NCBI GenBank assembly: GCA_002633005.1
Contig: NMRA01000353.1
Location: 195,625-259,624 of the forward strand
Direction: 5' to 3'
From: Phoronis australis
Lineage: Eukaryota > Animalia > Phoronida
Length of the DNA: 64,000 nt
Shown: positions 4,994 to 55,493 of the stretch, in pieces
How the letters are laid out: every line of letters begins with the position of its first letter
Position numbering within the stretch: the stretch's first letter is position 1
The notes under the pieces: model-generated
What the model was told of the DNA's origin: nothing
Seen by the model: only the letters and a program-made list of their open reading frames with translations
Database searches by the model: none
Made by a program: the position numbers and the translations under genes

Positions 4994-5080
4994 TCAGTGA
5001 GGCATATGACCCATGTGTCTTTCTCGTTCTAATACCAACTGTCTATGCAACGCCTCTTGATGTGCCATTTGGGCTTGTAG
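4994..5080 (-). CDS. RERE: RERE terminal coding exon 23
   Basis: Acceptor ctttctttcag, then [28 protein letters not shown], a typical atrophin C-terminus. Confidence 0.88.
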   Translation of the reverse strand, partial: LQAQMAHQEALHRQLVLERERHMGHMPH

Positions 5081-20000: not shown

Positions 20001-23000
20001 TTTGAAACCCAGTAAGCAGCCTGGTCAATTAGATTAGGGTGGCTGTAGTTTGTAATGATAATATGATTATTGATTTTCCCTGGCACACGATCACTGCTAA
20101 ATGATAGACATTACAAATATTAGCCTACTATGTACACAGGCAATCTCTTTGTGGCAGTGTTTGCATTAGATAGCCAAGTTCACATGCAACTGCTGTCACA
20201 TCCTATGTCAACATAAGCCTCGATAAAAAATTGCACACTCTCACAGATAGGCAAACCAGATACGGATAGCAAAAAGATTACCGAATGTTATTAAAGTAAA
20301 GCGCACTGATTTATACCGCAATTATCTGCTATTATTGTCCTCGAATAGCATAAATTATTGTTATCTTAAATTTAAATCACTGCCTCACCAGTAATAAAAT
20401 GGAACATTAAATCAAAGTGGACAATTGGCCAAAGCCACTCAGGCAAATCAAATAGTTACAAGAAGTGACGGATTTCATCAACCAGGTTCACAGGTAAAAA
20501 AGCAATAATCAACGCACAGCGATGCTATCGACGATAAAAAATCTTCAGTTTAGAAAACAATGTGGATAAAATGTAAAATTTCATACTCATCCAGTCAATG
20601 TTCGAAACAATAACTATTTTAGCACCATTTTCACCGTAGAGTTATTACTAATCAACATTTGATAAGAATTGCGTGTGTTAAGGTGTAGTAAGACTTTGGA
20701 AAATAGGGAAATGTCAATTTCGGAATTCATTTTGGTCCAAATTTAAGGCTTCCATAATTATCAGTCATGGCATCATCCTGTCAATGTTCCATTTGGCAAA
20801 CATAGACAGCAACTATCCTAGACCAACAAGGCAAAGTAATGTTACTAAGTATAGACTGTAGCCTGAACCAGGCATGCAGTGTACAGACACATGTATGAAG
20901 AACAGGGGAGGCTAACCAAAACAGTCACCATGTTTACTTTGGCAGGACTATAAATTATCAAAGTTAACTGGATAAATAAGCACACATCACCTCTAACACA
21001 TGCCTGAAGACACTAAAAACAACTGCGCAGACTCCAATACAAAAAGTAATGGTCAACACTTCTCTCAAAAGGTGGCTCCAATGATGAAGTTATCAAATTT
21101 TAAGTTACTGGCAGCAGTTCTCTGTAGATCTGTGTCAAGAATCTTAACAACACAGTAGAATTCAAATCAACATACATTTAGCACATTCATATAACAACAA
21201 GATGGCCCTTCAGTTTTGGCTAACATTCATACTAAAACAATTCTGCACTATGTCAATTCCCAAAAAATAATTAAGAAATCCTTATCTTGATGTAAAGGTG
21301 CCTGTACTGTTGGGAAGCATGACACCACCAGAGGGCAGTATCATCAGGGGTACCAGCAAGCATCAGCCATACCAACTCTACAGAGTTGTAGAAGCCTAAG
21401 TGTGCAAGACATTTATACGAATCTTACGAGTAACCCACCACACAGTCGTGGTAATTTGATGGCATGATCATAACAAAGAGTTCAAGAGAAAAAACTGAAA
21501 AATTCCACTGCATCAAATGGCTCATCCAAACCCGAGGTTAACTGTACATTGTAGATAGTACTAAATGCTGATCACAAATAAATCTATAACCATCTACCAA
21601 TGATGTACCTCTGGACAAACAGACACTGGTGTGACAGTTTATTCCTAGGTTTCTGAGGGAGTAAAACGTGTCTTAATTAACCTACTGTGAGGAAGGTAAC
21701 AAGAGGAGGTAATAGGTCATTCTTTTTTGCAGAATTCATGTAATAGTGATTTGTTTCTTAAACAAAGCTTAAACATTCACTAATACATGCCTACTAGCCA
21801 AAGTTAATGAAAATCTGTTGAGGACCTTTGAAGATACAGAAGTAAACATAAAAACAACAAGAGCAACGCAGAGCATTCAAAAGCGCCCACGAATGCACCA
21901 CAAACTGTCTGCTTCTAGAGTTGTTTATTTGTATCATAAAAATGGCCAATAGATGGCGCAAAATGTCCAATCCATCTGAAAATGGAACATGCCGTCATTT
22001 CTTTAATAGAAAGCTATTTACCAAATTTCAGAAATATCTGTCAAGGAACTTCAGAGAAACAAATGAACACGATAAAAAAAAATAAATAGCCACAAGGGGG
22101 CACAGAGTCCACCTGAAAGTTGTCATCGCCTATAGTTAGCTTCAGGAAGCACCACAGTATTCGAAGGCATCATCATCAACCGTCCTCATCACACTTAGAA
22201 CATATACTCCAATTTTCAATCCTCAGAATGGACATGAAAACAGTTAAAATGGCCACTAGGTGGGGCAAAATACCTCACATCCATTCGAAAATGGCAGGAT
22301 AGCAACTCAGTTGAGGACCTTTGAATATACAGAAAAACTAAAATTGCCACTAGGGGGTGTAACGGTAGTCCGATTCATGAGCAAGTCATCGTTGTTCGTT
22401 GTCAACACCATATAAATATACGTGCTATATTAAGTAAAAGATCCTATAAATGGTTCAGGAGATACAGCCATGGGCGCAAAAACAAAACTGTCACAAAGAA
22501 GCACCACAATATTCTAAGTCATCAGAAAATCGTCAGTCGCCTCAACACAGAAAGAAGTTCAACATATGTGCCAATTTTCAAAATCATCATCACCAGAGCG
22601 GTTTGGTTGATAGAAGGACGGACGCCAAAAAACTAAAAAAAAGTAACAACAGCAACGTGGAGCGTTGAAATGCACCCACGAATGCATTGCAAATGGTGTA
22701 CTTTTAGGGTTATTTATTTGTATCACAAAAATGGCCACTAGATGGCGCAAAAACATACAATCCATCCAAAAACAGGAACATGCCATATTTCATACAAATC
22801 TGTCAAGGAACTTCTGAGAAAACATAAAATGAAATTGCCACTAGTGGGCACAGTGTCCGTTGGATCCGCCTGAAAGTCGTCGTCGTCTGTTGTTATCTTC
22901 ATATAAATACACTTACTAAATTTAGTAAAGATCCTGCAGTGGGTTTAGGAGATACAACTATGGGCACAAAACAAAACTACAACTAGGAGGCACCACAGTA

Positions 23001-26000
23001 GTCAGTCACCATCATCAAAGGTTGTCTTCATACTGAGAACATATATGCCAATTTTCAAATGATTTGGTAGATAAAGGGGTGGACACCAAAAACAAGATTT
23101 GAAAACAGCAAAAAATGGCCACTAGGTGGTGCAAAATACCTCGATTCCATCCAAAAACAGAAAGATAGCGTCATCACACCAATAGATGCCTATATGTAAA
23201 ATTTCATGAAAATCTGTTGAGGACCTTTAAAGATACTGAGTTATACGTAAAAAACTAAAATTGCCACTAGGGGGCACAGCAGTAGTCAGATATGTCCAAA
23301 AGTCGTCGTCATCCGTAGTCAACATCATCTAAATACACTTGCTAAATTAAGTAAAGATCCTGCGAACGGTTTAGGAGATACGGCCATAGGCACAACAAAA
23401 ACAAAACTGTCACTAGGAGGTGTCACAGTACTTGAAATCGTCGGAAAATCATCGTCAACCGTCCTCTTTATAGTAAGCACATACATGCCAATTTTCACAA
23501 TCATCCTTTGAGTGGTTTGATTGATAGAGGGGTGGACGCAAAAAACAAACTCGAAAACAGTTAAAATGGCCTCTACGTGGAGCAAACTACGTCGAATCCA
23601 TCCGAAAATGGGAGGACAGCGTCATCTCACTAATAGGTGCCTACATATTAAATTTCATGAAAATCCGTTAAGGACTTTTAAAGATACAAAGGTAAACGTA
23701 AAAAAAATAAAATAACCACTAGGGGGCACACCGGTGGTCGGATATGTTCAAAAGTCATCATTATCCATCTTTAACATCATATAAATATATTTACTAAATT
23801 TCGTAAAGATCCAGAGAACAATTTAGAAGATAGAGCTATAGGTGCAAAAAAAATTGCCACTAGGAGGCGCCACAGTTGTCGAAATCGTCGGAAAATCATC
23901 GTCAACTGTCCTCTTCATAGTAAGCACATGTATGCCAATTTTCACAATCATCCTTTGAGCGGTTTGGTTGATAGAGGGATGGAAGCAAAAAACAGACTCG
24001 AAAACAGTAAAAATGGCCACTAGATGGCGCAAGCTACATCGAATCCATCCGAAAATGGGAGGATAGCGTCATCTCTCTAATAGGTGCCTACATACCAAAT
24101 TTCATGAAAATCCGTTCAGGACTTTTGAAGATACAAAGATAAGCATAAAAAAATAAAATTGCCACTAGGGGGCACACCGGTAGTGGGATCCGACTGAAAG
24201 TTCGCTCATGCCGTCCCATTCATGAATGAACCATATGTGCCATATTTCATGAACGTATGTCAAAGGGATTTGGAGATAGATCAGTGGACGCCAGACGGAC
24301 GCTGCCCGGACGGACGGAGATGATGGCATAATGCGTCCACATGTAAATATGTGGGCCCATAAAAATGGCCATTAGGTGGCGCAAAGTACCTCGAATCCAT
24401 CCAAAAACGGGAATATGGCATCATCCCACTACTAGATGCCTAACTGCCAAGTTTTATGAAAATCCGTTGAGGTCCACCAAAGATACAGAGGTAAGCGCAA
24501 AAAACTAAAATTGCCACTAGGGGCACACTGGTAGTCGGAGAGGTCCAAACTTCGTCGTCATCCGTTGTCAGCTTGATATGAACATTCCTGCCAACTCTCA
24601 TCAAGAACCTGAGAGGGTTTTAGGAGATACAGCAGCACTCGCCAGATGACGGGTGCCCAGACAGAGATAACGGCAATATGCAATCACATATAAATATGTG
24701 GGCGCATAAAAATTGCCACTAGTGGCACACCGGTAGTCGTATCCGTCCGAAAGTTCACTCGTGCTGTCCCATCCACAAAAGGAACATATGTCAAAATTTC
24801 ATGAACAAGCAACAAAGGGTTCTGAAGTAGCGGATGCCAAATGGACAGACAGACAGACAGGGATGACAGCATAAAAATGACGTGAAAGAGAAAACAATGA
24901 CCAGTAGTAGAACCAGTGACATTTTCTATACAATAGAGTGTCACAAGAAATGCGTTATGACTGACCATCCAAAACCAGTCTTGCAATTCACGTTTGCATT
25001 CTGATTAAAGTTTCATAAAGGTAAGGTTCCAATTACAACGTACTTTTAAAAGTAAACTAAAACATGAGAAACAAATGAAGAAAACATGTATTTGAAGATG
25101 ACAATAACTGATTTTGTATACGTAAAAATAGATCCTCTTTCCCCTTAAAATATACAATAGAAATAGCAGCACCAACTTTCAAAATATGAACAATATAAAC
25201 ACTTATTTGGAATGCCTGACAAATTCCCAGCAGTTACTCATTGAATATTCAATAAATCCGCCCAAGACAACAGACCCTAGTAAAGTCAAGAGAAAGTCAG
25301 TAATTGTAGACAAGTCTGTCCAGTGATGTGTAAGAACCACTTCACACTTCACTAAGTCTGCCTTCTACAATCAAGCTGACAATAGCAACTATACAAGGTC
25401 TGTTATTTCTATTGAAACCAGTTGAAGTGAAGGATGGCCTAACCTAGAATTATGCTCAGATATTTCTATAGCTTTCTGGGCTTAACTCCAATTATTGCAC
25501 ATTATATGTTTAGTATTAAACTTTAAGAACAACTTTGACTCATTGTCATTAATAACAGTTGCCATAAATAATTTTTGGGCAAAATAAACAAGAATAAAAT
25601 TCAAAGAGCTGAGTCAAATGACAATAAGTATCAGGGACTCCACAAGGCTATGAGCGTTCTCTGCCCCTCCAGGAGATGTGCAGACAACCCAAGAGGGGGA
25701 TACTTTGCAACCACATACTAAGTCCATGTACATGGCAAATACGGCAGAAGTTTGACCGACTAAAATGCAAGTGTTTTAAGCCAGGTAGATGAGTTGACTG
25801 CCACTAAGTAGTTTGTTTCCTCACAAATTGAACGGCTTTCAACCAAAAACTGCATACCTTCTATTTAAATACCAGCGTAATTTATCTTCAATTCATTTGC
25901 CTCACTTTAACTCGGCACGGGGGTAAAAAGTAGTCATTTCCTGTTTAGCTGTATTACTCTGAGATGCTCCACTTCACATAAGCTTACAAGAGTGATTACA

Positions 26001-29000
26001 ATCAATCCAAGTTGGAAACCACTTGATGGAATATCCCACTTATTATCATAATTTACGTGGAAACCGAGGGCATGACTTTCAGTCTGCACTGCACTTGAAC
26101 CTGGTAATTTCCATTATGAAAACCGACTGGAAAATGGTCTACCTTACAGGTAGTATACCCTTATTTCATTGTGCTTGCAGAAAAAAATGTAAGAATTTCA
26201 AATAAATTTAATTTCTTACAATTAACTGTTGATTTCTAGAAAAGAATCACAGCTTTGTGAAACAAACATGTTTACCTGCAATTGTTATCACTGGGTTAAC
26301 TTAGTGCAAAGTTAAGGGGAAAATGTTGAAACAAGGATTCGATTGCATGCCACAAGATTTCAGGGAAGTCCATTATAATGTGCAATGAGTTGGTAAAATC
26401 TTTGTCCAAACAAATTTTGTGGAAAGGAGCTGCTGAGATACTATCATTATGAGCCGAGATAGCATCATTATGTGCTGAGATAGTATCATTGTGTGCTGAG
26501 ATAGTATCATTGTGTGCTGAGATAGTATCATTGTGTGCTGAACCAGTATCATTGTGTGCTGAGATAGTATCATTATGAGACGAGATAGTATCATTATGTG
26601 CTGAGATAGTATCATTATGTGCTGAGATAGTATCATTATGAGCTGAGATAGTATCGTTATTGGCTGAAATAGTATCATTATGTGCTGAGATAGCATCATG
26701 ATGTGCTCCCATAGCCAGCATCAGGAATAAGCTGGTAAGAAGCCTACTTGACTAGCAGTGTTATAAAATGACCAGTTCCCGTAAATGTAGTCCACAACGC
26801 ATATGAATATTTCTTAGGTACAATTTCGTGTACACTATTTGTTTGATGATGATGAGGAAGAATAGTATTCAACTTCAACAACTCTTAGTACAGGCAATGA
26901 GATCAAGGTCAAGCTCAACGATTACTAAAACAATGAGCTGGGGGCTCCAAGTGATAAGGAAATTAATGTCTCTAAACCTGAACTGGAATACACTGTGATC
27001 ACCTTTATTACACAAAAGCTGTTTAAATTGTTGTCAATAAATTACCATCAAACAAGTTCATACTTTCCGTGGCTGGATTGGGAAATTTGCCGATAAACGT
27101 CAGTCATACTACAATGTCAAGTGCATGCCATGGAGTTTCTGGCAAGAAAAGCAAGGTCTCGCAAAATCACACGAATATGTTAAAGAGCTTACTAGCCTAA
27201 CTTAGCAAAATGGCAGTCGACGAAGTGATTGGTTAGTGAGGTTTGGAATGTTCCATTGTGGGGTTGAATTCCAATGTTTCTGTTTCATAGGTGAAAATTC
27301 TTGCTACAAGTGCAAGCTTACAATTTGCGGTCACCAGAACTAAGCGTTCAAAAATTCATATCCACAGCTGTCAAGTTCGCACTAATTGACAAAAAATGAT
27401 ACACATGAGCACTCACTTATTCCTGCTCATTATAGGATTAGCTCAGATGGTAATTCACTACAGCAGCCATCTTGCTCATAACCCAATAGCAAATAGTCAA
27501 AACTGACCAATTTACCTCAGAGTCCACTCAAAAAGAACTTCTTAAAGGACTTCTTAAAGAACTTGAAATAAAAATACTAACACCTAAACAGGAACATTTG
27601 AGTATTGCCACAAAACACCACAACACACAAAGTTTGAACATGTACGCTCCCTGGTATCATGACAGATGACAACAGTTAATTAACAGGGAAGCTATCTACC
27701 AGTGGTTCTAAACAACAAGACTACACCACTGTCCAAACTAACACAAACAGAAGTATGCCCAACTGGTAACAGCACATAACTTAACTTACCGTCTCTTTAT
27801 GAGACAGGAGTTCCCGCCGAATTTTGAAAAAATTCTTTCCGTACTGTCTCAGCCCTTTGACAAATCGTTTCTGAAACAAAAGAACAACAAAATAAACGAG
27901 TTTCCATAAAATGAAGACATTGCTTGCCACATCTAAAAACTTTCTTTAAAACTACAATTCTAAGCATCAACACTGTCACCATTTCCAAACAGCATTGTCC
28001 ATTTCCAAAAGTCGCTTTATATAATTCGATACATGTATTTATAACAAGTACTGCAAACTTCGATAGTATACCAAAAAATGACAACTTCCTTGTACAGTTG
28101 ACCATCGAAGACTCAAAACACGGTGTAAATGTCTGAAGAGGTTGACAAAAAAGTTGTGCATCAGCAGGGGGCAACTGTGGTGCAAGGCTCTCACGTGGTT
28201 AACCAATGCATGTATTTTCAAATAGAACCATTGCTTCACCAGTGCCACTCATCAAATTTAGAACTTGCATTGAACCAGCAAGACAGTACCTTGACTTGAC
28301 ATAACAATAGACTGGTAAAAAATTTAACATGGATTTTGCAAGTTTGACTTGGAAAATCATACAAGTCAACTGCATTCTACCTGAGTTTGAACTCAGTCGA
28401 CCTGGCTTTTGAGCAATTTTCAAACTGGGAAATGTAAAATGTTTACCATACTGATATGGTGCAAACCTTCAAGACTGGTGGGTGGTGAAAATTTTCAGAT
28501 CTTTGATATCATTGACAAATGGTACAATTCACGCAAGGTCTCTATTCATCACCATGGCGATATGAAGGATCAAGAAGACACTTCATTTTGGCTAATAAAA
28601 GGCGAAGGCAACCTTTTTACATGTCATTTTCAGCAAAAATAAGGTTCGTTGATTATCTCAAATCACAGCTTTTTGTAATTTAATTATCTGTTCTCCACTC
28701 TGGAGGTGACTTTTTGGGATGCAAGAATTTCGTGCCAATTACTTTTCATATAGTCTGACTGTGAGAGCTGTTGAGTCAGTCATTGATCTACCTCGGTTGT
28801 AGTAAATTCAGTCGTCGTTAGCTTTTGTTTACGAGTCAGTCAACATGCCACACTGTTGCTGTGTACCGGAATGTACTCATTATGGCCAAGAGTCTGTAAG
28901 CAGCCCTGCTGCGATGTTGACTAGTGGGAGTGAATACAGGCCCAGTTCGACACCACGTGAAGAGGACAGTTCGTCATTCAATGAACAGATCGGTGAGCCA

Positions 29001-32000
29001 AAGTTTGATAAGTTTATTGTGGACTTGTCTAAAGTATTGGAGCTAATTAGAAGGTGCCATGTGTGTGGCGAGAGAGTCACACGGCGGGATGTAAGCAATT
29101 TGTGTGCTTAGGTCACGATCCAGTGGGAGTGTCGCGGGACACTCGGGCAAGTGGGACAGTTGTTCCTCAGTCCGTGAGACGAGAATGAGTACATCCCGGT
29201 ACACAGCAACAGTGTGGCATGTTGACTGACTTGTAAACAAAAGCAAATGATGACCGAACTTATCAAAAACAAGATAGAACAATGACTAACTCGGCAGTTC
29301 TCACAGTCAGACTACATGAAAAGAAATTGGCGCAAAATTATTGCCTCCCAAAACATTATTTCCAGAGTAGAGGACGAGTAATTGTTTAAAATACAAAAAG
29401 CTGCAAATAAACTAAAAAAATATGTCTGGGATAATCAACGAACCTTATTTTTGCTAAAAAAGACATGAAAAATGGTTGCCTACGCCTTTAAAGCAAACTT
29501 GCAACCCACGATTATGCACTCATTTAGAATGAGTTTTAAATGTGATCTTCCTTCCTTGCTCAAGATGTAAAAAATTCAATAACACTGTAAAATTTTGTAG
29601 TTCAGGTGGCGATTCCGTCAACAGAATGGAACGAACTACAAGGTCGATTTTCAGTTGAATTTTGTGAAGTCAAGCAAAATATCACACCTAAAGTGTTCAC
29701 CAGAAGGTTTAGCAAGTAACAATCTGATGATTTGACGGGAAAAGGTGATGGACTTACTGTGCTGTTAAATAGAAATGCTGCAAAGAGATGACTGTTGTGA
29801 CGCACAATGCAAGTTGAAATATTTTCATTATTTATGTGCGAGTTTTATGGAGGTTATTGCTCAATATGTGGGATAAATAGCTCAAAACATGTCCTTGTCA
29901 GTTAGTTCCCATATCTGTACCCTGAGAGCGTTTTGAAGCAATTACCACCCTCAGGCGATACTTCCTCCAAATCCCAGCCAAATATCAGCCTCACCATGTA
30001 ATAATTTATTTATATCCTGACTTTTTTGGGTGACTTAGCTGACCTATTCTTGTTAATAGCTCAATATGTCTCCGCAGTTTGAGAACCAGTTTTCCCCCAG
30101 TAAATAACGGATTTCAAACTGGTTCTCAAAATGAGGAAACTTTATATCCGACTATTGCCCTGTTCTTTATATTTAGAAAATATACTATCGAGTGACTCCA
30201 CTACGCTGTCTATAACGAGCAAATCTATGGACTATACAAGAGTTGATTATTGTTCTTAGTAGCAAAAAAAACCTTCTAGTACCGAGCATAACAATGTTGT
30301 GGGACAAAAATGAAAACATGGCTATACACATTCATCATAAAAGGTAATTATTTTCAATATTAGACGCCAAGTTGGAGGCTAACACATGGACCGAGATCCC
30401 AGTCAGAGTTCTAGGTTTTTCATAACTATGGAACTCAAAATTGACTCAAAAACTGAATCTGAAGATTATGGAAATAAAATCAAAGTGAAACAGAACTTCT
30501 GCATTTCTCAACCTGAAATTCATTGTTTCAAGCTGAATTTTCAAATTTTGACCTTGAATTTCTTGGAGGTCGAAATTGTCGACTTGGTTATTTTCCATGT
30601 GTCAAAGGCAGAGCACTTACCCTCTCCTCAGAATTCCACTTCTTGTCCACACTCCTGGGAACTGGACACTTTACAAGGGCTTGTAAGGCCCTCCCTGTGT
30701 CGTAAGTGTTGTCATGGAGCTATAGAACAGAATGCCAAGTGATATTTAGACAACACGCCATGCTGATAAAAGACATATTCAAAACTGGCCATCAAACTGA
30801 AAATGCCAATTTTTAATACTATATTATACAATGGCTGGCTCCTTGAAAAGCAGCACAAGACAACAAGGCCATAATATTGTTTCAAAAGCAAACTCATCTC
30901 TGGAAGAGGTAGTTTTTAACACAATACATCTTAAATGTCAATTGTCATATAGTGTTTGATTGTACTTTATTTCTGTTTCTGTAGACGAAGGACGTTTATA
31001 TCCGAAAATTTCAGTTGATCCATTCTTGTTGTTTTATTTACCTATTGAAATTATATAAAAATTAAGATACTAATCATTTTGCTGGATGTAATTTTAACAT
31101 GGTTTGTGTCAAACCACATGTATTCACTTACACTATGCATGGCGTTCATAGTAGTTTCATCCATTGAGGCTGCAAGGCAGCCATCTTCAGGAGTTCCACC
31201 ATCACACATTCCCGCAAATGCTGCCATACTTCTGAAAATGGTACACATACAACAGTTGTCAGAGGCAGTGTGATGGCCATGAATACCCAGTCTAAATAGG
31301 GGCAACATCAACACAGCAGTGAGTGCGAACACGGCAGTGAGTGCGAACACGGCGGTGAGTGCGAACACGGTGGTGAGTGCAAACACGGCGGTGAGTGCGA
31401 ACACGGCGGTGAGTGCGAACACGGCGGTGAGTGCGTACACGGCGGTCCGCATCAGCACAGCAATGAGTATCAACACAATGACTATAACATGATCAACAAT
31501 AGTAACAAGTAAATGTATCAAAATTGCAGCACCAGTGAATATAAAGTACATAATGATGGTAACTATACACAAGTTGAGGATAGTGAAGATAGTGGTTTCT
31601 TTGCCTATAGCTTGCAAAAAACCTGTGGTGAATGAGGTGACTAGAGTCTACCACACTTTGGTCAATAGGGTCCACCACGCCTTGGCCACTAGGGTCCACC
31701 ACACCTTGGTCACTAGGGTCCACCACACCTAGGCTCTCATCTCCAAGTGCTACCTACTGTGTTCATATTTGGTTTGCATCCCAAGTGGGTTGTGACCTGC
31801 TGTTACAATTGCTAGCCATGTCTAATTTTATTTCTGCCTAAGGATGAGACATGGCCCGTCTCAAAATACAGCCGCCTTCTTAAGTACCACTGTAATGTCT
31901 CCTGAGCCACCATGGCAACTGAGCCACCATGGCAACTGAGCCACCATGGCAACTTCCCAAAGCAGTCAGGGAATGATGCAAAAATGCCAGTGTCCAATCA

Positions 32001-35000: not shown

Positions 35001-38000
35001 GTGCATAAAAATGAAGTGATAGATCACAAACAACAATCACCCCACCTGGTGGCTGGGCCCAACCCTGATCTCTCCCTGTGTGGTCGCCAGCCTCTTGGTT
35101 TCAGGGTTGTAGCCAAGAACACAGAAGAAGGTGTTGGGTAATGGCTTGAAGTCTTTGGCAGCAAAAATATCCTTATAATGGATAACTGTGCAGTGTCCTC
35201 TGCAACAAACCAACAAGTGCATTATGGGAACATGCAGCGGAATAACAACAGGCTGTTTTGTGGCTCAACTAACTTAAGATGGATGTCTCAACAGTGGTGC
35301 ACCGCATATGCACTACAGCGGGTAAGTGACACGTTGGGTTCTGCAGTTAAACAAAACTTATAAGGATATGTATCCTATTGCGCAACTGTAGGAGCACGGA
35401 GAAGCTTTTAAAGACACATCACAATGACCACACTGACCAAATATGTTACAGCCATATGTAGCGTAAATAAGACAAAGTAGTTCAGTCATGAGAGTTGCTG
35501 ACACAGTACGTGCCCTATGTTACGGCCATATGTAGCTTAAATAAGACAAAGTAGTTCAGTCATGAAAGTTGCTGACATAGTACGTGCCCTATGTTACGGC
35601 CATATGTAGCTTAAATAAGACAAAGTAGTTCAGTCATGAGAGTTGCTGACATAGTACGTGCCCTAATCATAGAGTAATTTTCTTTGCTCGTAAAGTGTTA
35701 TATTTAGCTGTACATTTATCACATTTGATTTAAGCCAGAACAGAAGCACGAACTTTAAAATTGGTTCAGTTGAGCTCCAACTATTTTGATTTCTGGTCAC
35801 TCCCCCTCACAATGCATTTTGATGTGTACCTGTACAGTCTCTTCTCTACCTGTGTCGCTTGTTATGTGTTTGTAACTGTTTCCTTGAGAATGGCTTAATG
35901 AAATAAACCGAAACGTTGAATTGGATAGATATGTCGTTATTTACTTACGGGGTAATTTTAAGTTCGTGCAACTGTACATTTATCATGAACTCACACAGAG
36001 ATTGGAAAAATGCCCTACAACTAAGATTGCATTTGCCCTTGATTGAGAGGTGTAAATGAAAACATTGCATAAGTCTCTCTACTTGTGACAAGAAGTGATC
36101 AGAACACATCAAGTAGTTGACCTGACTGTCTAACAACACTCAAGTCAAACAACATTTAGGAATACAATTCAAAACTGGCCACTCTGACTATTGCATAAAT
36201 AAACTTAAAGCAAGATGTACCACCGGCACGAATTAATATTTCTCACTCAAGAAAGCTAGAAGATAGATTAGCGACAGGCTCAAGTACATCAATATTTCTC
36301 ATTAATAATAAAGTGTTTGCCAACTTATATTTGAAATTACCAGAAGGAAAGACATCAACATGGCAACTACCGAGTCAAAGTTTGACTAGATAGTAGCAGT
36401 ACATGACTTTAAAAGTTTTTGATTTCTACATTATTTAGAAAGCGTATATTACAGTGATTTTTATTATAAAGCTATTACATTAATAAGAGAACTGCTTCAT
36501 GTAAATAATAGACATTTGACAAGAAATTTAACAAAACCGTTGATATGTTAATCAAAGAAAGCAGTCCCCTAGACTTCTGTCTTGTCATGGACAAATAGTC
36601 TCAGGTCTCAAGGAGTGCTGGCCAAAATGATTCATTTGATGGGGCATTTCTGGTATTATAGCAAAGTCTTATCAATTTTGCACAAAAATAATTGCCAAAA
36701 TTGACCATTTCTCAACTGCTACTGACATTATTGTGTATGACCATAGTTTTTCAAAAAATATTGTTTGACGGTAGCCAACAAAACTTGAAAATAGTAAAGC
36801 ATTCACCTGATTTTTACTTACCTTTTAATAAATGAAAAAAAAAATAAAAGCTCACTGAAATGCCATACTGTGTCCTAAATTGAGGAATTGTTTATACACT
36901 GCTCTTAAGAAAAATTGTTCAGCACTCAGCTTCAAACAAATCGTAAATGGGACATACAATTGATAAAACCATATTATCCAGTAGTTGTAATAGTTGGTTA
37001 AATTTTTGAACATTAACAGGGTGACACAATTGACAAATATCCTACTCATATCATAGTTTGATGTTCAAATAAGGAATGACTTATCAACCACCACAGCTAT
37101 GTAAACACAGTAGTGGCTGGAACGTCATTAACCCAGGTGCAATGCTCAGACTATTGGAAAACAATCTTTCAGTAATGTTTTACAGAAAGAAAATCTTACT
37201 CAAGAGGAGACTGTAAAAGCATCCTGCTGCTGACGACGAGAGACTGATTTGTTATTGGTCAGGAAAATGACCCTCAACTGAAGAATGGTTCCGTAAAAAG
37301 TGGAAATGAACTAATCCCAAAATTCAATTTTTTAGAAGCTCAATGTCTTTGGACATGGTCCCACACACCTGAGCACGACCAAAAACTGAACCCCCACAAT
37401 GATATATCATTTTAAGGGCCTTTGTGAACATTCTTCTTTTGAAATTGGGGTGGAGTCGTGGAGATACCTGCCACCCCACATTACAGATCTGCCAGTGTAC
37501 CAACAGTGACAGTCGACTCACCTCAACAAGGATGCACGTACGCTGTCCACTGTATCAGAACTGAACAGTTCTCTCACCTTCACACGGGCATTCTTGATCA
37601 CAAGATCTAAACCAGAATCTGTATTGGAAACAAACAATGGTCAGAATTTATAGTTATGTCCATGCTGAAGTTCTCAAATACTGCACACATCCTTGCAGTA
37701 TGACTGGTCATTGGGTTATTAATGAGAAGTAACACTGACAATATCCAACAAGTAAGCACAGGTCTCGCATCAAATCTAGAAAACATTCCAAGTGATTAGA
37801 TTTCTGTTGAGACATGGTAGTTTTTGGATAATGAGATGATTATACTACATGAGTTACTTAGTTACCATAACTTTATCAGCTGTGGACAAGCCCAGATACC
37901 AGCTCTAATCCAAGTAAGGGTACAAACTGATACCAGTGTTAGAGCTGAGTAAGGGTACAAACTGAAGCGTGTTCAACAGAGTGAGTGCCCGCTAGCGTGT

Positions 38001-41000
38001 ACTCGCGAACACAAGGAACAGCTCCTGAACAGCTGTGAGCGCTCACTGTGCGATCCAGTATGGCGACTCTGAAGCAGATTGTGTTGAACGTATTAGCCGA
38101 TGAGCTTAACACTAACAGTCCTTCCTATGGCGTACTGAGCGATAAATATGATTAATCTTTGCCAATAATTATTAATATCGGCAGCCCAAGACAACAACCG
38201 TGAAGGCTTTGGAACGACAAGAATCGAAAATTACCTCGAAGAAACTGTTCCTCGCTACAGCGACCCGTAATTTAAGTCGCAGTTTCGGATGAGTTGGTCA
38301 ACTTTTGAGGTTAATTTTCGTGTTGCAGAACCATAATGGGTTCATATGTTGCCTTCGCAGGACGCCATCTTGGAAATCTAAGCGAACATGCTCTCGAGGT
38401 TGTTCGTGAGCGCTCGCGAGCGCTAACGTGAACACAGCTGTTCAGGACGAGGGCACTCAAATCGCTCGCGGGCGCTCACTCTATTGAACATGCTTTGGAT
38501 GCCAGTGTTAGAGCTGAGTAAGACATCCAGTTTTTGAAAGTGAAAATAGCCAAAAGTGAGTGAGTGCATTGACGATATGAAGGAAGGTTCTCCATAGGTC
38601 ATCTATGTCCAAAATTGTGCATGATGAACATTCTGATAAGAAAAATCTCAAAGTTGAACAAATGATAGGATCATTTAAGTTCACGTGCTGAGCACACAAG
38701 ATAAAATGATGTCTTTTGAGAAGTAAGTGGAAGTCTACAAATTCAATGTTATCTTCTCAGACTTGATCCATCTTTTTGGAACATAACTTTATAAGATAGA
38801 AATGGAGGTGTTATGGAAAAATCTCACCAATTTCAAACATAACAAAAATGATGTTTTCTTATTTTTAAGAGCTTTTTTAACGTGTTGTGAATGGCCACAA
38901 TTTTCCAAAACTAAATGGTAGCTGTACAATGAAACTTGAACATGGAATATCACTTCATTTTGTGCAGTACATGTTCAAAATAAAATTTCAATTGTCGGCC
39001 ATATTGTGCCTTAAATTCGTGAGACTTTACTATGAAAGTGATACATAATTATTGTTAGCCAGAATGTATACCATTCATAAAAAGGTCTTGCAAAGATTAA
39101 CTTTGTAAACCAGCCTGCAGTGGACTGATGCAACTAGATCTCCATCAGGATGTCACAGCTAACTAGGTTAACATAATTCAATAATATTCAATACACAAAT
39201 TAACAATACCAAGTCCTAGTGAAACTATATACTTTGTCTAGTAAAACACCAAAACAGAAGAGTAGTCCCATATAAACAGTCAAATACCCATTTAACAAGA
39301 TGTGTAATACCACCAATTTAAAACCTTTGAATATTAAGCAGGAGACCAAAAATTCAATAATTCTGAAGAATGAAACCAGCTGCTTAAACACAGGCACCAA
39401 AAGTAAACATCATATTTCTGCACCTCATTCACCCCGATTGACCTTCACAAGGCACACTGTGACAGTAAAGGCAAGGATAGTAAATAAAGAAAAAACCCGA
39501 ATAGAAGGGCTCAACTCAGTAAATTAAGTGGTTCCAATATCAGGGCGATGGTATTACAGATCTCATGCAAACATGACTTGTCTATCACTAATTACACATT
39601 CTTAACACTTGGCTCAGTCACCATAACTTGAGTTTCATGGATTCACAAACATTATAGTCAAAAGTACAACACAAAATTACTGTTTCAGTAGTTAAGTGAC
39701 TGAGTAAGGCATTTCAATCTTAACAAGAAGCAACATACGCCTCATGACTTATGTCTTGCCACACTCATAAATAACACATCAATTAAAGGTATATGTTATG
39801 TTGAGGTTAATGAGAAGACAAGCATTTTTAAGATTTGAAAGGCTTCACCAAATAAAAAGCGTTGTTCATCAAAATGATTGGACAAGAGATCCATTTTTAC
39901 ATGACCTGTTTTCTGATTAGCGTCATTCCCGACCACTGCGACTAGTTTGTAGTTGGCACATATTTTCGATTCAAGAGGTAACCCTACGTCAGGCAGGCTC
40001 CGTGGTACACTGCTGACTTTCCAACAAGACCTGACTTAAAAATTTCCAATAATTCTTAATGTTCACAGGAAGCTATGCACTAAAAGCCTTTTCTTGTTTG
40101 AGAGAATTAACGGTTAGGACACTAATCAGATTTATTTTTGGGAGTGATTTTGAATGAAATGGCCTTACCCAGCCTTCTTGATTGGCACAAACTCGCAAGT
40201 TGACTGAAGATACATCACATTTCAGATGAAATTGCCAGCAAAACTTATGCAAATCTGTCACAACACAGAACTGTTGCATATTACGTTTTTTTACACACTT
40301 TGCCATAAGGCCCCTTCATACTAACGTAACTCCGGTGGAGCGTTGATGTAATCTGTGAAATTAATTAAATCGTTCATATCAGCTTCGGTAGGTAACGGCA
40401 GTGTTCTCCACATGCCGTTACGTCATCAAAGCAAATTGTAAGCGACTCTGAAGTTATCGCAATAATCGCAAGGTAGCGCTGATGCATCTCGTGCGTGCTA
40501 TTTTTTAATGTGACAATTTGAGAACACTGACGTGTGCTAATTGACAAAAAACTTATTTGTAATACGATTGGTAATTTTTCGAACAAAATATAAGCCGCCA
40601 TTAGCGACACCAACGCCCTTAAACTGTTGACGATAGCAGTGGCCCCTGACGATAACTTCGATGAGACTGGAGTTGACCATAATTCACAGCCCGCTGTTAA
40701 ACCCACTTGTTTACTGCAAAGTTAACTGGCACTTTTAACTACATTCAGGACCAAAGTTAACCATTCATACTGACCAAAAGTCCCCAGGTTAGTATGAAAG
40801 AGCCTTTATACTAGGAGATACTGTAAGCAGGGGAGATTATAGTTTCAGACTAAGTGCAAAGGTCAGCCACTTGGTACCATAACAAGAGTCAGATGTATAA
40901 TGAAACTCTAAAGCCTGACCCTGCGGTCCCACACTTCAATAGTCAATGGGCTACAAAACTTATCTAATAGAACAGTAAAAAATTAAAAGCACATGCGAAC

Positions 41001-43850
41001 TGGTGTAGAGATCGCACAGCATCACTAATAGTGGTATCAACATAACCATCAACATCAATAGCCATATTTGAGGCACAGAAGATGGTGAATGTGTTCACTA
41101 TCAGGAAATACTATCAATTCAGTATCAGTGCCGAGGGCACCAATAGCGCCTTATCTGTTTCTTTTTGTGGTCAAGAGAACGGGTCTTTTCTGTTTGGAAT
41201 TTGAGGCCAATATCGAAACAAAGAGAATTATAGCACAATACTAATCTTCTCGGTGCTTATAAGCCCTACCAATGTCAATGTTTGTGACAATACCTAGCGT
41301 CCTTATCAACTTCGTGTACACTTTTTGAGACGTTTGTATCACGAGGATATTCCGAATGTATTCACAAAATCACATTTACTGACATGCAAATGAGCCTATC
41401 AATAGATAGTGTATTAGTAGTGGTTCTGTTGATAACACTATCAGTGGAAACCATATCAGCAAGCTATGTTCAGCCACCACTAGTTTCAGATCACTAAAAC
41501 AGCTTGATAATAAGAAATGTGTTCACACTAGTCAGAATTCTAAACTCAGAAGGATTTCACCGTAAGTTATGGTCACCTACAGGGATCATCAAACTGGATT
41601 TCAAAATCCAGGTCCCTATAAGTGACTATTGCCGAACATAGTTAAATAAGTGGACTGATTTTAAGTCCAAGTGCACCAAAACCTAAAGTGTGACTTTCCC
41701 TGTTAACCAAGCAGTGTTCTTTAATAGTGAACAGACAAAACAAACACAGAGCTAAAGGTCAGTTTGGATTGACATGGACCTCTACGCCATTTAAGTGGTC
41801 TTTGACCCTAAGTACTTGTGTTTATTGGTAAAGTAACCAAACAGAGATGAACTGGGGTCCTATTCACCAATCCTTAACCACAACTTAGCATCTTTAGTAT
41901 CTAGTTAGATCCTATTTACACCTTAAACAGTCACTACTCACATCAAATCAGCCAGACAGCCATGACCTAGACATACAAAACAAACAGTGTTTGTAACAAG
42001 GCCTCTGATTGGCTGCAGTACTTGCAATTGCCTTAACAATGACTGTCAAGTGTTTTTGCACTTAGGCATCCAAGTTGAAAACAGCCCTTTTGTGTACGTT
42101 CCAAGGCATGCCTGGCTATTTTCAACAAGTGTGCAAACTATCTCCAATATACATTGTGTAAATTGTTTATATTACAGACCAGGACTTAGGGAAAATACCA
42201 GACCATTACAGCAATATGCTTAGGGATTACATTTTCAACTTGATTAACTTCAGGACTAGGATATTCCATGACACTGTATGTGCTTCTGAACCTAAGTTGG
42301 GACCACAACCTGTCTGAGTCTACAGTAATAAGATCTGGTGCTTGTTCACTACACAAAAAAATTGCGAAAAATTAAGATCGTCAGGAAGTTTTTGTAAAAT
42401 ATCGCCATACATCACACCAGTGAAATTCTTGCCTCTACCGAACACAGGCTTGGCTACTAGTCAGCACCATAATTACGATTAACAAGTATTCTGTCTTGTG
42501 AGAATTGTTTAAAACAAATTTACTTGAACATTAATAACCAAACTGGTGTTGTCTTTTATTTTAAATTTCTGTTTTTTACATGGGTGCAGCCCGAAAATTA
42601 GGATACCCACCCCTACAGAGAAAAGGTCACTCTTTTATAGGGTATTGTTCCACGGACAGCACCGCTTTGCAGGGGTTAATTCCCTAAACATAACCCTTCA
42701 TACTCATACGGATTCTTAGACAGATAAAATTTTCATTAACCCGAAACTATACAAGAGATGCCACGTAGTCAAAATTGATTCACCATTTGCAAGAAGGTCG
42801 AAACCTTCTTTTGTGTGTGGTTGAAATAAAGGAAACTTTTGTAAAATTTCAAAATCACTAAGTCATTCTTTTGTAGGTAATTTTGTCTCAAAAGGCACCA
42901 TCAAAGGAAATGAATCAAAAAAGGCATCCCTTCGTAAGAACCTCCAAGTGAAAAAGTTACCTTTTGAGCAGCACGCAGATTGCATCGTGTACCTATTTTA
43001 TGAGTTAGTAGACTACTTACATGAGTAAGTACACCCTCGCACCACGCTATGGATAGAAGTTAGCCAAGCCAATAGTTAGTTCTAATAATTAATATTTTAG
43101 ACCTACTCGTAACGCTTTCATTCAAATTTCAGTTCCTATATCACTTAAAGTATTCCGAACCAAACTTTCCATATCGGCCATGACTTTGCCCACGAACATA
43201 TGAATGCATCGATGCCAACCGTAATGATACAGATGTAGTAGAACGCTTACATCTGACAAGAGTCCACCCACCTAAATAGAGTAGCTTTACGGCCTTCCTT
43301 GAATGGATTTTTGTTATTTTAGATGTTTTAAGAAAACCAAGTAGTCCCAACAGTACTTTAGCAACATAAGAAAACACGATTTGATCACTCAAACAATACC
43401 TTGTTCACACTGAAGCGGTTAAGGTTATAATCCTCGGTCCGAAAACTTTAAAACCATTATAACAAAAAAAATTCTCAATGCGAACTCGGTACTTGCAAAA
43501 GTTGTTACTCAATAAGTGGCATTGCTGGAAACAGTGGTGCACCGAGGCACGAACAGGGGTGAATGAGATGTAGACAACTTAAGTGATAAATGCAGGCAAA
43601 TCGAGAACACAGAACAAAATGCAAAAAAAATAGTTTTACTAAATAGGGGTCTGAATAGAACATGATAAAGATTCTCACAGTGATGTAGATGAATCTAAGT
43701 CATTTCTCACAGTGATGTAGATGAATCTAAGTCATTAAGCCTGAATATTCGTTTCATTTGACAATATTAATGGCATTGGTGACATACTCAAAACAAATCT
43801 TAGGCTTTCGCATAGACAAACATGTGCTAGTTTACAAACACACATGCACG

Positions 43851-43896
<46 letters not shown>

Positions 43897-46800
43897 GAGG
43901 TTCACTCACTATCAACTATTACTGACCAACTTCAGCTGAGTTGTTGGATATGATGACATCTCAGCTCAGTAACCAAGGTCTGATTCCTTAGGCAATCAAC
44001 TGGATTGAGTTGGCAGGTAGATTAATTAATGTTTACTACCAGCATAAATAATAAACGAAACTTACTGTTCTCAAAATGTCTGTCCTGCACCAAATGTTGG
44101 TAGACTGTGTCGGGCACCTCTGAGCTGCGGTAGTACCACTTGACTTGGCTGAACAGCGTATCTCGCTTGCTCTGCAAACAGTCAACCAATCAGTTGACAT
44201 CATCTATATTGATAACATACACCAGCACATGATAACTTCATCATTCATCATAATTAAAATTCAATCAGCTGAGACCCCGGTAAGAGCTACCATGGAAATG
44301 TTGGTTAAAAGTTAATGACATTTTTCACCTAAATGAAAACTGAAATTTGGACAACACATTTGGAAACCAATCCAAAAAAAGTTAAATCACTTTAAGATTA
44401 TGCAGGACCCTAGACACAGGCCAAGCCTGGTTAATTTCAGAACATCATATCTTAGAAATGTGCTTCATTCAAACCTTTCAGATATCACGCTTTACTCTTT
44501 ACTCTCCGAAACGTTGTGAGAAATTGTTTTTAAAATGTTCCACATTTGCATAAAGGGCTATCAAAATATAACACTTAAGATTTTTGTGAAAAAACTCAAG
44601 CTGCTTATGAAACTGATATTTTAGAAAACTGCAATAGCCTTTTAAAGATCCCATCTTGAACATTTGCATCAAATAAAATTTGATCTTGTTATTGATACTG
44701 TTGTTTTGCTATCAACATGCCTTTCTTTTTAATTAATAAGACATGGTCACATGACCTAATCAATGGCACATTGGTAAAAAAGTCAACAACAGCAACGCAG
44801 AGTGTTGAAATGCACCCACGAATGCACCGCAAACGAAGTGCTTCTAGGGTTGTTTATTTATTTCATAAAGATAGCCACCAGATGGCCAAAAAACGTCCAA
44901 TCCATCTGAAAATGGGAACATGTCATCGCTTCTTTAATAGAAAGCTATTTACCAAATTTCATAAAAACCTCTCAAGGAACTTCACAGAAACAAAGGAAAA
45001 CAGAAAAAATGAAATTGCCACAATGGGGCACAGCGTTCATTGGATCTGCCTGAAAGACATTGTCATCTGTTGTTAGCTTCATATAAATACAATTATTAAA
45101 TTTAATAAAGATCCTGCAAAAAAAGATCCTGCAGTGAATTTAGGAGATGCAGCTATGGGTGCAAAACAAAACGAAACTACCACTAGGAGGTGCCACAGTA
45201 GTCGAATTCATTATTGTCAACCGTTCTCTTGATACTGAGAACATATACGCCAATTTTCGAAATCATCCTCAGAATGGTTTGGTTGATCGAGGGGTGGACA
45301 TCAAAAAAACAAGACTCGAAAACAGGAAAAATGGCCACAAGGTGGCGCAAAGTACCTCGATTCCATCCGAAAACGGGAGGATAGCATCATCTCACTAATA
45401 GGTGCCTATATTCCAAATTTTATGAAAATACATTGAGGACCTTTGAAAATACAGAGGTAAACATAAAAAAAATAAATTGCCACTAGGATGCACACCGGTA
45501 GTCATATCCATCCGAAGGTCGTCGTCATCCATAGTCAACATCATATAAACACACTTGCAGAATTTAGTAAAGATCCTGCCAATGGTTTAGGAGATACAGC
45601 CATGGGCACAAAGAGACAAAACTGCCACTAGGAGGTACCACAGTAGTCGAAATTGTCGGAAAATCATTGTCAGCCGTCTTCTTAATACCAACAACAACAT
45701 AAATGCCAATTTCCAAAATTATCCTTTGAGCGGTTTGGTCGATAGAAGGGTGGATGCCAAAAAAAACTGATTCGAAAACAGCAAAAATGGCCACTAGGTG
45801 GCGCAAACTACGTCAAATGCATACGAAAACAGTTGGATAGCGTCATCTCACTGATAGATGCCTATATGCTGAATTTTATGAAAATACCTTGAGGACCTTT
45901 GAAGATATAAAGGCAAGCGTAAAAAATTAAAATTGCCAATAGGGGGCACACCGGTAGTCGAATCCGTCCAAAAGTTCGCTCATGCCGTCCAGGCCTTTAT
46001 GCAGCGTAAGTCCTGGGTACTAATCTGGACGCCCTGGCAAGGACGCTCAATGTATCATTTGGATGCCCACTGTCAATAGGAACCTTTCAATTTAGGACTC
46101 ACACATTGAATACTAGGAAGCCTCTGAAGGCTCACAGTGGGGGGGGGCTCTTTTTTCAAAGCAGGAAGAAATATAGCATTATTGCTATTTTGACACTTGA
46201 TTGACAGCACTGTAAAAGTCTTGGTCTACACACTTTTTTTAGTAAANGCTGGGGGTGGGGGGTTACACGTCAGAACCATGGACGCTCTAGAATATTGGGA
46301 ACCCCATTTTGGACACCCTATTTTCAAAATCCTTGATAAAGGCCTGATGCCGTCCCATCCATGATAGGAACATATGTGCAAAATTTCATGAATGTACGTC
46401 AAAGAGTTTTGGAGATACAGCAGCTGATGCTGGACGGACGGAAGCCAGACTGACGGATGGACGGAGATGACAGCATAATGCGGCCACATATAAATATGTG
46501 GGCGAATAAAAATCAATTTCAATAGGCTTTCTACATTCAGAAAATGTATAACTTTACTGAGTTGAAATTAATAGGTTTGCACGTATTTAGGTAAATGCAC
46601 ATCCTTGCATGAACCGTTCTAGTGATGCCCTACATCCTTGTGTCAAACTTCATCAAAATCCAACCTGAGGTTTTGAGATATTGAGTGGACACCCAGACAC
46701 ACGGATGCCAGGACAAAGTGGCGACAATATGTGACCACACCCAGACACACGGATGCCCGGACAAAGTGGCGACAATATGTGACCACATGCATGTATTTGT

Positions 46801-54848: not shown

Positions 54849-55142
54849 AAATTGTACAGTGAACAGTGAGTAGATATCAACAGCAACAACGCCGAGAGTG
54901 CGTGAAATGTTGGGAAGAACTACGCACTGCAGTGATAAGGGGAGATAATTTAGGAGGGTAGGGCAATAAAGTCTAGACCAAACCTTTCACAATGCACTTA
55001 AGTAATCAGACCAACTTTAGTCCGCTCGATAGTCTAGTCTTTTCGAGAGTACTAACTTTAGTATGTTACTAAATTTAGACTGGTCTAAATCACCTTTGGC
55101 ATCGGGTATAAACTTTCTGGGTCGAGAAAGAATGTTAAATCA

Positions 55143-55493
55143 ACGGTCAACTCCAGTCCCATCGAAGTTATCGCCAGGCCTCAGTTATCGTCAACAATCT
55201 AAGGGCAGTGTCGTTTCAAATAATTGATTACATCTTGCTCAAATAATCACCAATGGAATAAGACGTTTTACGTGAATTAGCACATGCAAATTTTCCCAAA
55301 TTGTCTCATTAAAACAATCTTAGCGTGCACGCGATGCATCGGTGCTACCTTATGATTACTTCGATGACAACAGCGTCACTACAGTTTACTTTGATGTCCG
55401 TTAACTACTGAAACCAGTATGAACAGTTCAGTTATCTTCGTAGTTAACGTTTTTGCTCCGCTCAGACCAGAGTGAAGTCAGTATGAAAGGGCC
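55143..55493 (-). mobile_element. Harbinger-like MITE, copy 3 (inverted, partial)
   Basis: Ends GTCAGTATGAAAGGGCC|TAA; the interior is the reverse complement of the other copies. Confidence 0.7.

What the first reader, a model, noticed from the sequence alone, without database searches (positions are those of the whole stretch)
21856..46507. HINE-like family carries co-oriented arrays of CTCF-like motifs at ~150-bp spacing
Seen in the sequence: almost every internal monomer of the HINE-like elements (21.8-24.9, 33.3-35.0, 44.8-46.5 kb) has a motif in the same + orientation. Examples are CCACTAGATGGCGC (22735, 24017), CCACTAGGGGGCAC (23264, 23716, 24162, 33510), CCACTAGGAGGCGC (23857, 33803) and CCACTAGGTGGCGC (45791). 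I count about 35 exact or degenerate copies by eye. The motif is the most recognisable part of otherwise divergent monomers. Established: this is essentially the bilaterian CTCF core consensus CCAC(C/T)AG(G/A)(G/T)GGC(A/G)C; CTCF orientation controls cohesin loop anchoring in vertebrates; and transposons such as rodent B2 SINEs have spread single CTCF sites. Inference: this family may be a mobile multi-site insulator cassette that deposits 8-18 directional CTCF sites per locus, here in three introns of a developmental corepressor gene.
Basis: partly seen in the sequence, partly recalled or inferred. Interest (0 to 1): 0.85.

Follow-up and report, generated by a model that had tools for sequence, protein, structure and literature searches.

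The report
Rolling-circle transposon carrying CTCF-motif arrays
A very abundant non-coding jumping element in an invertebrate carries 8-11 same-direction matches to the docking site of the genome-folding protein CTCF; the sites likely helped the element spread rather than serving the host as insulators, binding is untested, and RNA from the element comes almost entirely from one strand.

Summary
The three loci hold 38 motif slots about 145 bp apart; 32 score p<1e-5 with a recalled CTCF matrix, all on the + strand, against 0.27 expected in shuffles. The carrier has HINE (non-autonomous Helentron) anatomy on the - strand, an A-B-C trimeric monomer array, probably thousands of copies, and sits in three different introns of RERE/Atrophin in a lophotrochozoan-like animal. 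Co-orientation and spacing follow from tandem duplication. The motif is the best-kept block between monomer types (12/14 against 40% elsewhere). In inserted copies, however, it gathers private mutations and CpG decay at flank rates (5.4% against 6.0%). Constraint therefore likely acted in the transposing lineage, not on these host copies, which argues against a maintained insulator cassette. Unexpected: in three RNA samples, reads on the family are 29-109:1 for one strand (control repeats 1.3-1.7:1) at ordinary per-copy level. This suggests that copies in genes are nearly all co-oriented with transcription. CTCF binding and the host's CTCF gene could not be tested. Verdict: a new variant of known kinds (HINE with central repeats; transposon-borne CTCF sites).

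The parts
21856..22644 (-). E1a: truncated HINE unit (3' terminus at 21856; 5 motif slots, internal deletions, no 5' module)
22645..24364 (-). E1b: full-length HINE unit, 11 motif slots (19-mer starts 22732 to 24159 on +)
24365..24877 (-). E1c and E1d: two partial units joined head to tail (24365-24712 with a 5' module; 24713-24877), 3 motif slots
21777..21854 (-). Monomer fragment (type A) abutting E1a
   Evidence: 76-78% to E2 monomers
33289..35011 (-). E2: full-length HINE unit, 11 motif slots; its 5' end lies about 35 bp inside the intron after RERE exon 35201-35046
44785..46512 (-). E3: full-length HINE unit, 8 motif slots
34965..35011 (-). 5' module (E2 example): T run, 10-bp subTIR ATGCACCCAC, inverted-repeat hairpin; CCGT-type microsatellite follows at about 34915-34960
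   Evidence: hairpin z -1.5 to -2.5 in the four 5' modules folded
22645..22690 (-). 3' module (E1b example): 3' subTIR GTGGGTGCAT about 25 nt from the end, short palindrome, terminal CT(C/G)TTGTT
   Evidence: folding z only -0.2 to -1.3 in the four 3' modules
24014..24032 (+). Example CTCF-consensus site, monomer type A; 24.3 of 30.2 bits
   Evidence: recalled matrix
24159..24177 (+). Example CTCF-consensus site, monomer type B (no CpG in the core); 23.6 bits
23854..23872 (+). Example CTCF-consensus site, monomer type C; 23.4 bits
45990..46346 (.). Later insertion inside E3: terminal inverted repeat CAGGCCTTTAT, 8-bp target duplication ATGCCGTC (hAT-type MITE by recalled criteria)
   Evidence: joined form skipping 365 bp seen in other copies
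4997..48172 (-). Host gene RERE/Atrophin, span of coding exons found by homology (a weaker match at 52239-52180 may be a further exon). E3 lies between exons 48172-48089 and 44171-44064, E2 between 35201-35046 and 32193-32059, E1 between 27873-27790 and 15810-15667

Best explanation
The three loci are copies of a high-copy non-coding element with HINE (non-autonomous Helentron) anatomy whose ~145-bp central monomers each carry one CTCF-consensus site; the site was kept while the monomer types diverged but decays at background rate in the inserted copies, so it was likely a CTCF docking site selected for the element's own spread rather than a host-maintained insulator. Shown: anatomy, motif, conservation between monomer types, neutral-looking decay after insertion, CpG decay, strand-biased RNA. 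Inferred: mobilisation in trans by a Helentron Rep-helicase; CTCF as the binder; the benefit, most likely that CTCF keeps young copies accessible or unmethylated (the survival strategy proposed for CTCF-bearing SINEs in PMC3368268), so that copies with intact sites seed more daughters. Old copies are likely methylated and only partly occupied; type B sites have no CpG and would stay bindable. The RNA strand bias most likely means that copies inside genes are nearly all co-oriented with transcription, with their motifs on the template strand pointing back to the promoter. Whether insertion mechanism or selection causes this is open.
For: HINE anatomy: against the definitions in PMC4067079 and PMC7492417. 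Abundance: summed contig depth 6e4-7.5e5 on E2 against 28-35 in unique flanks; termini 2,800-6,100 times single-copy depth (the tool warns this is not a copy number). Motif. Between types A, B, C the 14-bp core is invariant at 12/14 against 51/126 elsewhere, best other window 9/14. Over six monomer types it is 10/14 against 29/119, window-corrected P=0.035. All three type consensuses keep 23-26 bits, and the six variable positions of the 19-mer are low-information (P=0.003). Among copies, shared variants are rarer in the core (8/312 against 144/2362, p=0.009) but singletons are not (17/312 against 141/2362, p=0.80); CpG in the core changes at 29% against 27% in flanks, with 6 damaging C>T and 4 tolerated G>A. 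Oyster HINE arrays lack the motif: 9 hits for six 9-mers in a 3.35-million-character supplement of about 7,150 arrays, cells cut at 400 characters. So it is not a generic HINE box. RNA: strand ratio 31, 29 and 109 on E3 in three samples, 32 on E2, against 1.3-1.7 pooled over nine control bins; RNA per 1000 DNA depth 4.6-5.8 against 6.3-8.8 in controls. RERE exon bins give 12.4:0, 2.3:0, 2.8:0 and 1.0:0 in the same direction. 624 reads leave the 5' terminus into mixed flanks (agreement 0.41).
Against: No binding data; the host CTCF gene was not seen (no genome held). The matrix was recalled and is vertebrate. The fit of the constraint to CTCF's own information profile is only suggestive: core-only test P=0.14; observed mutations are milder than neutral at P=0.03 (0.018 without CpG) but P=0.18 once recurrent changes are collapsed; the three-type result is about P=0.09 after a rough window correction. 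Other boxes are also conserved (best 9/14). Only 25 monomers from 3 loci enter the decay test, so weak host selection is not excluded. The CpG decay shows that copies do get methylated, which limits the protection idea to young copies. RNA: one study only; part of the signal comes from a few abundant transcripts (400-520 reads with one flank at 45434, agreement 0.96); single control bins range 0.2-5.7; the bin with exon 48172-48089 shows more reads on the opposite strand (0.7:2.2, 3.1:3.7, 1.9:4.1; it also has raised DNA depth, so a repeat may contribute).
Confidence: 0.5

Rival explanations
1. Passenger motif: the founder monomer captured or happened to contain a CTCF site; tandem amplification alone produced the array, and the apparent conservation is chance or a by-product of other constraints.
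For: Orientation and spacing follow from tandem duplication; neutral decay in copies; conservation P only 0.035-0.09 after window correction; CTCF-motif tandem repeats arise often (unrelated 38-bp x18 array in L006).
Against: The motif is the top block in both the 3-type and 6-type comparisons while flanks fall to 47-76% identity, and shared variants are depleted in it (p=0.009).
Confidence: 0.25
2. Host-exapted insulator or loop-anchor cassette: each insertion works as a multi-site directional boundary that the host maintains.
For: 8-11 strong sites per unit; 27 sites still score p<1e-6; type B lacks the methylation-sensitive CpG (PMC3431485); CTCF-bound tandem arrays can insulate (DXZ4, PMC5687341); strong orientation signal in RNA.
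Against: No excess conservation after insertion. Thousands of copies of a boundary inside genes would be costly (inference). No orientation-dependent CTCF boundaries were found in echinoderms or squid. E3 tolerates a nested insertion and E1a deletions.
Confidence: 0.15
3. The conserved block is not a CTCF site but a hairpin (GCCAC-NNN-GTGGC) or a binding site for the Rep-helicase or another zinc-finger protein needed in transposition.
For: Type A is a perfect 5-bp inverted repeat; HUH transposases act on single-stranded DNA (PMC4778049); constraint acts in the transposing lineage.
Against: Types B, C and first-A break one of five pairs without compensation while keeping the CTCF score; oyster HINE arrays lack the block.
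Confidence: 0.1

Closest known systems
Cg_HINE elements of Crassostrea gigas and DINE-1/HINE (PMC7492417: passages and both supplements searched, part 2 of file 1 read; PMC4067079: passages)
   Same: T run, subTIR with nested inverted repeat, GTCY-type microsatellite, 140-180-bp central tandem repeats in fixed orientation, 3' subTIR and palindrome, no coding capacity, intronic copies.
   Different: Central monomers here form an A-B-C higher-order repeat and each carries a CTCF consensus; the oyster arrays do not. SubTIR is 10 bp against 11-15 bp. No sequence relationship was tested beyond motif counts.
Helitron-borne heat-shock-element clusters in Caenorhabditis (PMC6927752: abstract and passages)
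   Same: A rolling-circle element spreads dense arrays of one transcription-factor site.
   Different: There binding and gene activation are shown by ChIP and RNA; here the factor is architectural and binding is untested.
Transposon-spread CTCF sites: rodent B2 SINEs (PMC3368268, passages) and lamprey hAT and LTR repeats (PMC5504073, passages)
   Same: Mobile DNA multiplies CTCF motifs by the thousand; benefit to the element was proposed there.
   Different: Vertebrate, ChIP-proven, not described as phased multi-site arrays in the passages read; here a Helentron derivative in an invertebrate with 8-11 sites per copy.
DXZ4 macrosatellite (PMC5687341, passages)
   Same: Tandem array with CTCF sites in repeat units.
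   Different: Single-locus, long-unit array with shown binding and domain function; not mobile.

Membership tests
HINE (non-autonomous Helentron) | Subterminal inverted repeats near both ends | tested here: met
   5' ATGCACCCAC after the T run, 3' GTGGGTGCAT about 25 nt from the end; 10 bp, slightly shorter and nearer the end than the 12-15 bp and 38-60 bp in PMC4067079
HINE (non-autonomous Helentron) | Inverted repeat nested with the 5' subTIR, then microsatellite | tested here: met
   four 5' modules fold with z -1.5 to -2.5; CCGT/CTGT repeats follow
HINE (non-autonomous Helentron) | Short 3' palindrome | tested here: met
   visible 5-bp stem in E1b and E2, degraded in E1a and E3; folding not beyond shuffles
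HINE (non-autonomous Helentron) | Central tandem repeats, no coding capacity | tested here: met
   longest stop-to-stop frame overlapping an element is 126 aa; these frames were not scanned against Pfam
HINE (non-autonomous Helentron) | Insertion at TT with no target-site duplication | tested here: inconclusive
   T's at both ends and no duplication in the flanks of E2 and E3; no empty site among the joints shown
HINE (non-autonomous Helentron) | Autonomous Helentron partner with the same ends | not testable with these tools
   no genome held
CTCF binding site | Core motif match | tested here: met
   (matrix recalled)
CTCF binding site | Second (M2/upstream) module | tested here: inconclusive
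   the 5' flank is an A tract that differs between types; no M2 matrix was available, so judged by eye against a recalled consensus: none seen
CTCF binding site | CTCF gene in the host and occupancy in vivo | not testable with these tools
   CTCF is reported in molluscs, annelids and rotifers, absent in flatworms (PMC10658182); no ChIP or ATAC run was listed
Host-maintained insulator / loop anchor | Purifying selection on the motif at the inserted locus | tested here: not met
   singletons 5.4% against 6.0%, p=0.80; CpG decay equal; small sample
Host-maintained insulator / loop anchor | Insulation or enhancer blocking | not testable with these tools
   needs Micro-C or a reporter

The most novel reading that the evidence does not exclude
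A rolling-circle element has seeded tens of thousands of phased CTCF sites through an invertebrate genome, and inside genes these arrays survive almost only in one orientation because a bound array is a polar obstacle to RNA polymerase II or cohesin. That would be orientation-dependent CTCF function in a spiralian, readable from thousands of natural insertions.
Probability: 0.12. Interest if true: 0.85.

Novelty: new variant of a known kind. Interest (0 to 1): 0.5.

Why it matters
Whether CTCF acts directionally outside vertebrates is open; spiralian data are very few (PMC10658182). A family that delivers 8-11 strong, identically oriented motifs at thousands of loci of different ages is a natural experiment for that question, and for the idea that CTCF binding is a survival strategy of transposons. 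The 30- to 100-fold strand bias of the family's RNA is unexplained. It would show either strand-specific target choice by a Helentron or strong orientation-specific selection in introns. If CTCF does not bind, the family still matters as a confounder: it would dominate CTCF motif scans in this genome.

Tried and rejected
No own genome is held, so genome-wide conservation, orientation counts, the CTCF gene and an autonomous partner could not be searched. Two-motif pattern scans for relatives: viral contigs 3 loci, metagenomes 0 then 3, prokaryote genomes 1. None of L004-L007 aligns to the window; L001-L003 were only inspected for motifs and are GC-rich, unlike the element. The run search listed no RNA holder; RNA runs came in by species label. 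No empty insertion site appeared among the joints shown (15 of more than 1,400 per call). A T-rich target as cause of the strand bias: rejected as sufficient, T-run skew in these introns is only 1.3-2.9x. Poly(A) signals: AATAAA is 11 on + against 3 on - in the elements, but introns show a similar skew (1.16 against 0.70 per kb), so this is at most a partial cause. An element-internal promoter: not favoured, since RNA per DNA depth is flat and no common start was found, but not excluded. The RERE tree places the window with Lineus and bivalves against arthropods (quick tree, 13 rows, SH-aLRT 100); it holds no deuterostome or annelid and only 12 of the 20 proteins found, so the phylum is not fixed. 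Three papers could not be read: a study of intragenic CTCF orientation, Heger 2012 and a CTCF-methylation structure paper. Earlier scan findings by sequence, by place and by two word sets gave nothing.
Full report
Observation. The consensus with up to two mismatches occurs 45 times in the window against 1.71 expected. A CTCF matrix recalled from memory finds 32 sites at p<1e-5 inside 6.5 kb of elements, all on +, and 12 in the remaining 57.5 kb; 300 shuffles of the elements give 0.27 on average. There are 38 slots, median spacing 145 bp. Each site follows an A tract.

Anatomy. Read on the - strand, a full unit starts with a T run, a 10-bp subterminal repeat, a hairpin and a CCGT-type microsatellite. 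It continues through 8-11 monomers and ends with the second subterminal repeat, a short palindrome and CT(C/G)TTGTT. This is the HINE/DINE-1 layout of PMC4067079 (passages) and of the oyster Cg_HINEs (PMC7492417; passages and supplement table). The array is a higher-order repeat of three monomer types, A, B and C, with period 440-447 bp. The 21.8-24.9 kb locus is a composite: a truncated unit, a full unit and two partial units. E3 carries a later 357-bp insertion with an 8-bp target duplication. An empty site and an autonomous partner were not found; no genome is held.

Host and abundance. The exons around the elements encode RERE/Atrophin on the - strand, and the three loci lie in three different introns. 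The protein is closest to Lineus and bivalve proteins among those found (quick tree without deuterostomes or annelids), so the host is a bilaterian, probably a lophotrochozoan. CTCF orthologues are reported in molluscs, annelids and rotifers (PMC10658182, passages), and a CTCF motif is the top motif in annelid open chromatin (PMC7854359, passages). The host's own gene was not seen. Summed contig depth on the element is 6e4-7.5e5 against 28-35 on unique flanks, 2,800-6,100-fold at the termini. The tool warns that this is no copy number; I read it as thousands of copies.

Is the motif under constraint? Between monomer types, probably yes. The 14-bp core is invariant at 12 of 14 positions in A, B and C against 51 of 126 elsewhere, and at 10 of 14 against 29 of 119 over six types (window-corrected P=0.035; one of the four differences is a CpG-decay majority in the subset of C copies used). 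All types keep 23-26 of 30 bits. The variable positions are low-information ones (P=0.003 over 19 positions, but 0.14 within the core). A hairpin reading fits type A (5/5 pairs), but B, C and first-A lose one pair without compensation. Oyster HINE arrays do not carry the motif (9 hits for six 9-mers in 3.35 million characters, cells cut at 400), so it is not a general HINE box.

After insertion, apparently no. In 25 internal monomers aligned to their type consensus, variants shared by several copies are rarer in the core (2.6% against 6.1%, p=0.009), while private changes are not (5.4% against 6.0%, p=0.80). The CpG in the core decays like any other CpG (29% against 27%), with 6 damaging and 4 tolerated changes. 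Over 36 copies, mutations look slightly milder than neutral (P=0.03) but not once recurrent changes are collapsed (P=0.18). The simplest reading is constraint in the copying lineage and decay in resident copies. The sample is small.

Mechanism. I infer that a Helentron Rep-helicase moves the element in trans and that CTCF binds intact, unmethylated monomers, which helps those copies to be copied again. Such a survival benefit was proposed for CTCF-bearing SINEs (PMC3368268, passages). CpG decay shows that older copies are methylated. In human cells methylation at two CpG positions of the motif tracks loss of binding (PMC3431485, passages); types A and C carry the distal one, type B neither, so B sites would stay bindable. 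With 145-bp spacing, full occupancy would leave too little room for a nucleosome between sites (inference), so a young array would be open or only partly occupied. The insulator reading borrows the vertebrate orientation rule, which was not found in echinoderms (PMC13317027, passages) or squid.

An unexpected RNA result. In three RNA samples of one study, reads laid on the element at 80% identity or more come from one strand by 31:1, 29:1 and 109:1 on E3 and 32:1 on E2, against 1.3-1.7:1 pooled over nine control-repeat bins (one bin mixing a repeat with the element end was left out). RERE exon reads fall on the same side in four of four clean bin counts, so the RNA is the element's 5'-to-3' strand. 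RNA per DNA depth is flat along the element and no higher than for control repeats, no common start was found, and 624 reads leave the 5' end into mixed flanks. This fits passive read-through of copies that nearly all lie in the sense direction of their host genes, as all three loci here do. T-run skew (1.3-2.9x) and AATAAA skew are too small to explain it. Against: a few abundant transcripts contribute visibly, single control bins range from 0.2 to 5.7, one exon-containing bin goes the other way, and orientation could not be counted in an assembly. Candidate causes, all untested: insertion into the displaced non-template strand by a single-strand transposase; removal of copies whose A-rich strand is transcribed; a polar block by bound CTCF.

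Relatives and literature. Pattern scans found no relative of the family. One metagenome contig, L006, holds an unrelated 38-bp, 18-copy CTCF-motif minisatellite. Unchecked notes from this scan describe CTCF-motif repeats in other animals, among them an annelid minisatellite and a foldback transposon, so CTCF-motif arrays recur. Helitrons carrying arrays of a factor's site are known from Caenorhabditis (PMC6927752), and transposon-spread CTCF sites from mammals and lamprey. Searches for CTCF with Helentron, Helitron, rolling-circle, satellite or minisatellite terms and for orientation bias of Helitrons or DINE-1 listed no paper whose title or abstract describes a CTCF-array HINE or this strand bias. 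I saw only the listings of those hits, apart from PMC5687341; the library lacks most subscription journals and bioRxiv supplements are closed.

Verdict. A real, well-defined new variant of known kinds. The HINE assignment is about 0.95 likely. That the motif is a CTCF site kept for the element's benefit is about 0.5, passenger 0.25, host insulator 0.15, hairpin or other protein 0.1. Interest 0.5, raised by the strand bias and by the value of the family as a test bed for CTCF directionality in invertebrates.

Noticed in passing
window 33289-35011 and 44785-46512 (RNA runs X5-X7): RNA reads on the family are 29-109:1 for one strand, against 1.3-1.7:1 for control repeats, at ordinary level per copy; suggests that copies in genes are nearly all co-oriented with transcription. 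Cause unexplained.
   Followed up: partly
L006:2176-2870: Unrelated 38-bp, 18-copy minisatellite in an AT-rich metagenome contig; every unit carries a CTCF-consensus site in the same orientation.
   Followed up: partly
window 40304-40790, 51341-51731, 55139-56975: A second repeat family with long inverted arms (55139-55494 against 56494-56819) carries a weaker CTCF-like site in some arms (8-16 bits at 40463, 51534, 56628, 56772).
   Followed up: no
window 46560-46812: A second short HINE-like element directly beside E3, same orientation, different subTIR, with a 48-bp duplication of its 5' module and no CTCF motif.
   Followed up: partly
window 45990-46346: 357-bp insertion with terminal inverted repeats and an 8-bp target duplication nested in E3.
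   Followed up: yes
window 8076, 8673, 17386, 21322, 47825: Isolated strong CTCF-like sites outside the elements (15-21 bits), in or near RERE introns; two others (6281, 7339) lie in coding exons.
   Followed up: no
window 28598-29489: Inverted-repeat element of about 890 bp (arms 78% alike) in a RERE intron.
   Followed up: no
window 59787-63424: Duplicated 1.1-kb segments (96% alike) around an hAT transposase C-terminal fragment at 61541-62014 (Pfam PF05699).
   Followed up: no
window 48324-50375: Near-identical (99%) direct duplication of about 1.2 kb in a RERE intron; may be recent or an assembly effect.
   Followed up: no
L004 and L005: Two related metagenome contigs with dispersed short repeats containing a CCACTAGAAGGCAC word; origin unknown, no likeness to the window.
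   Followed up: no
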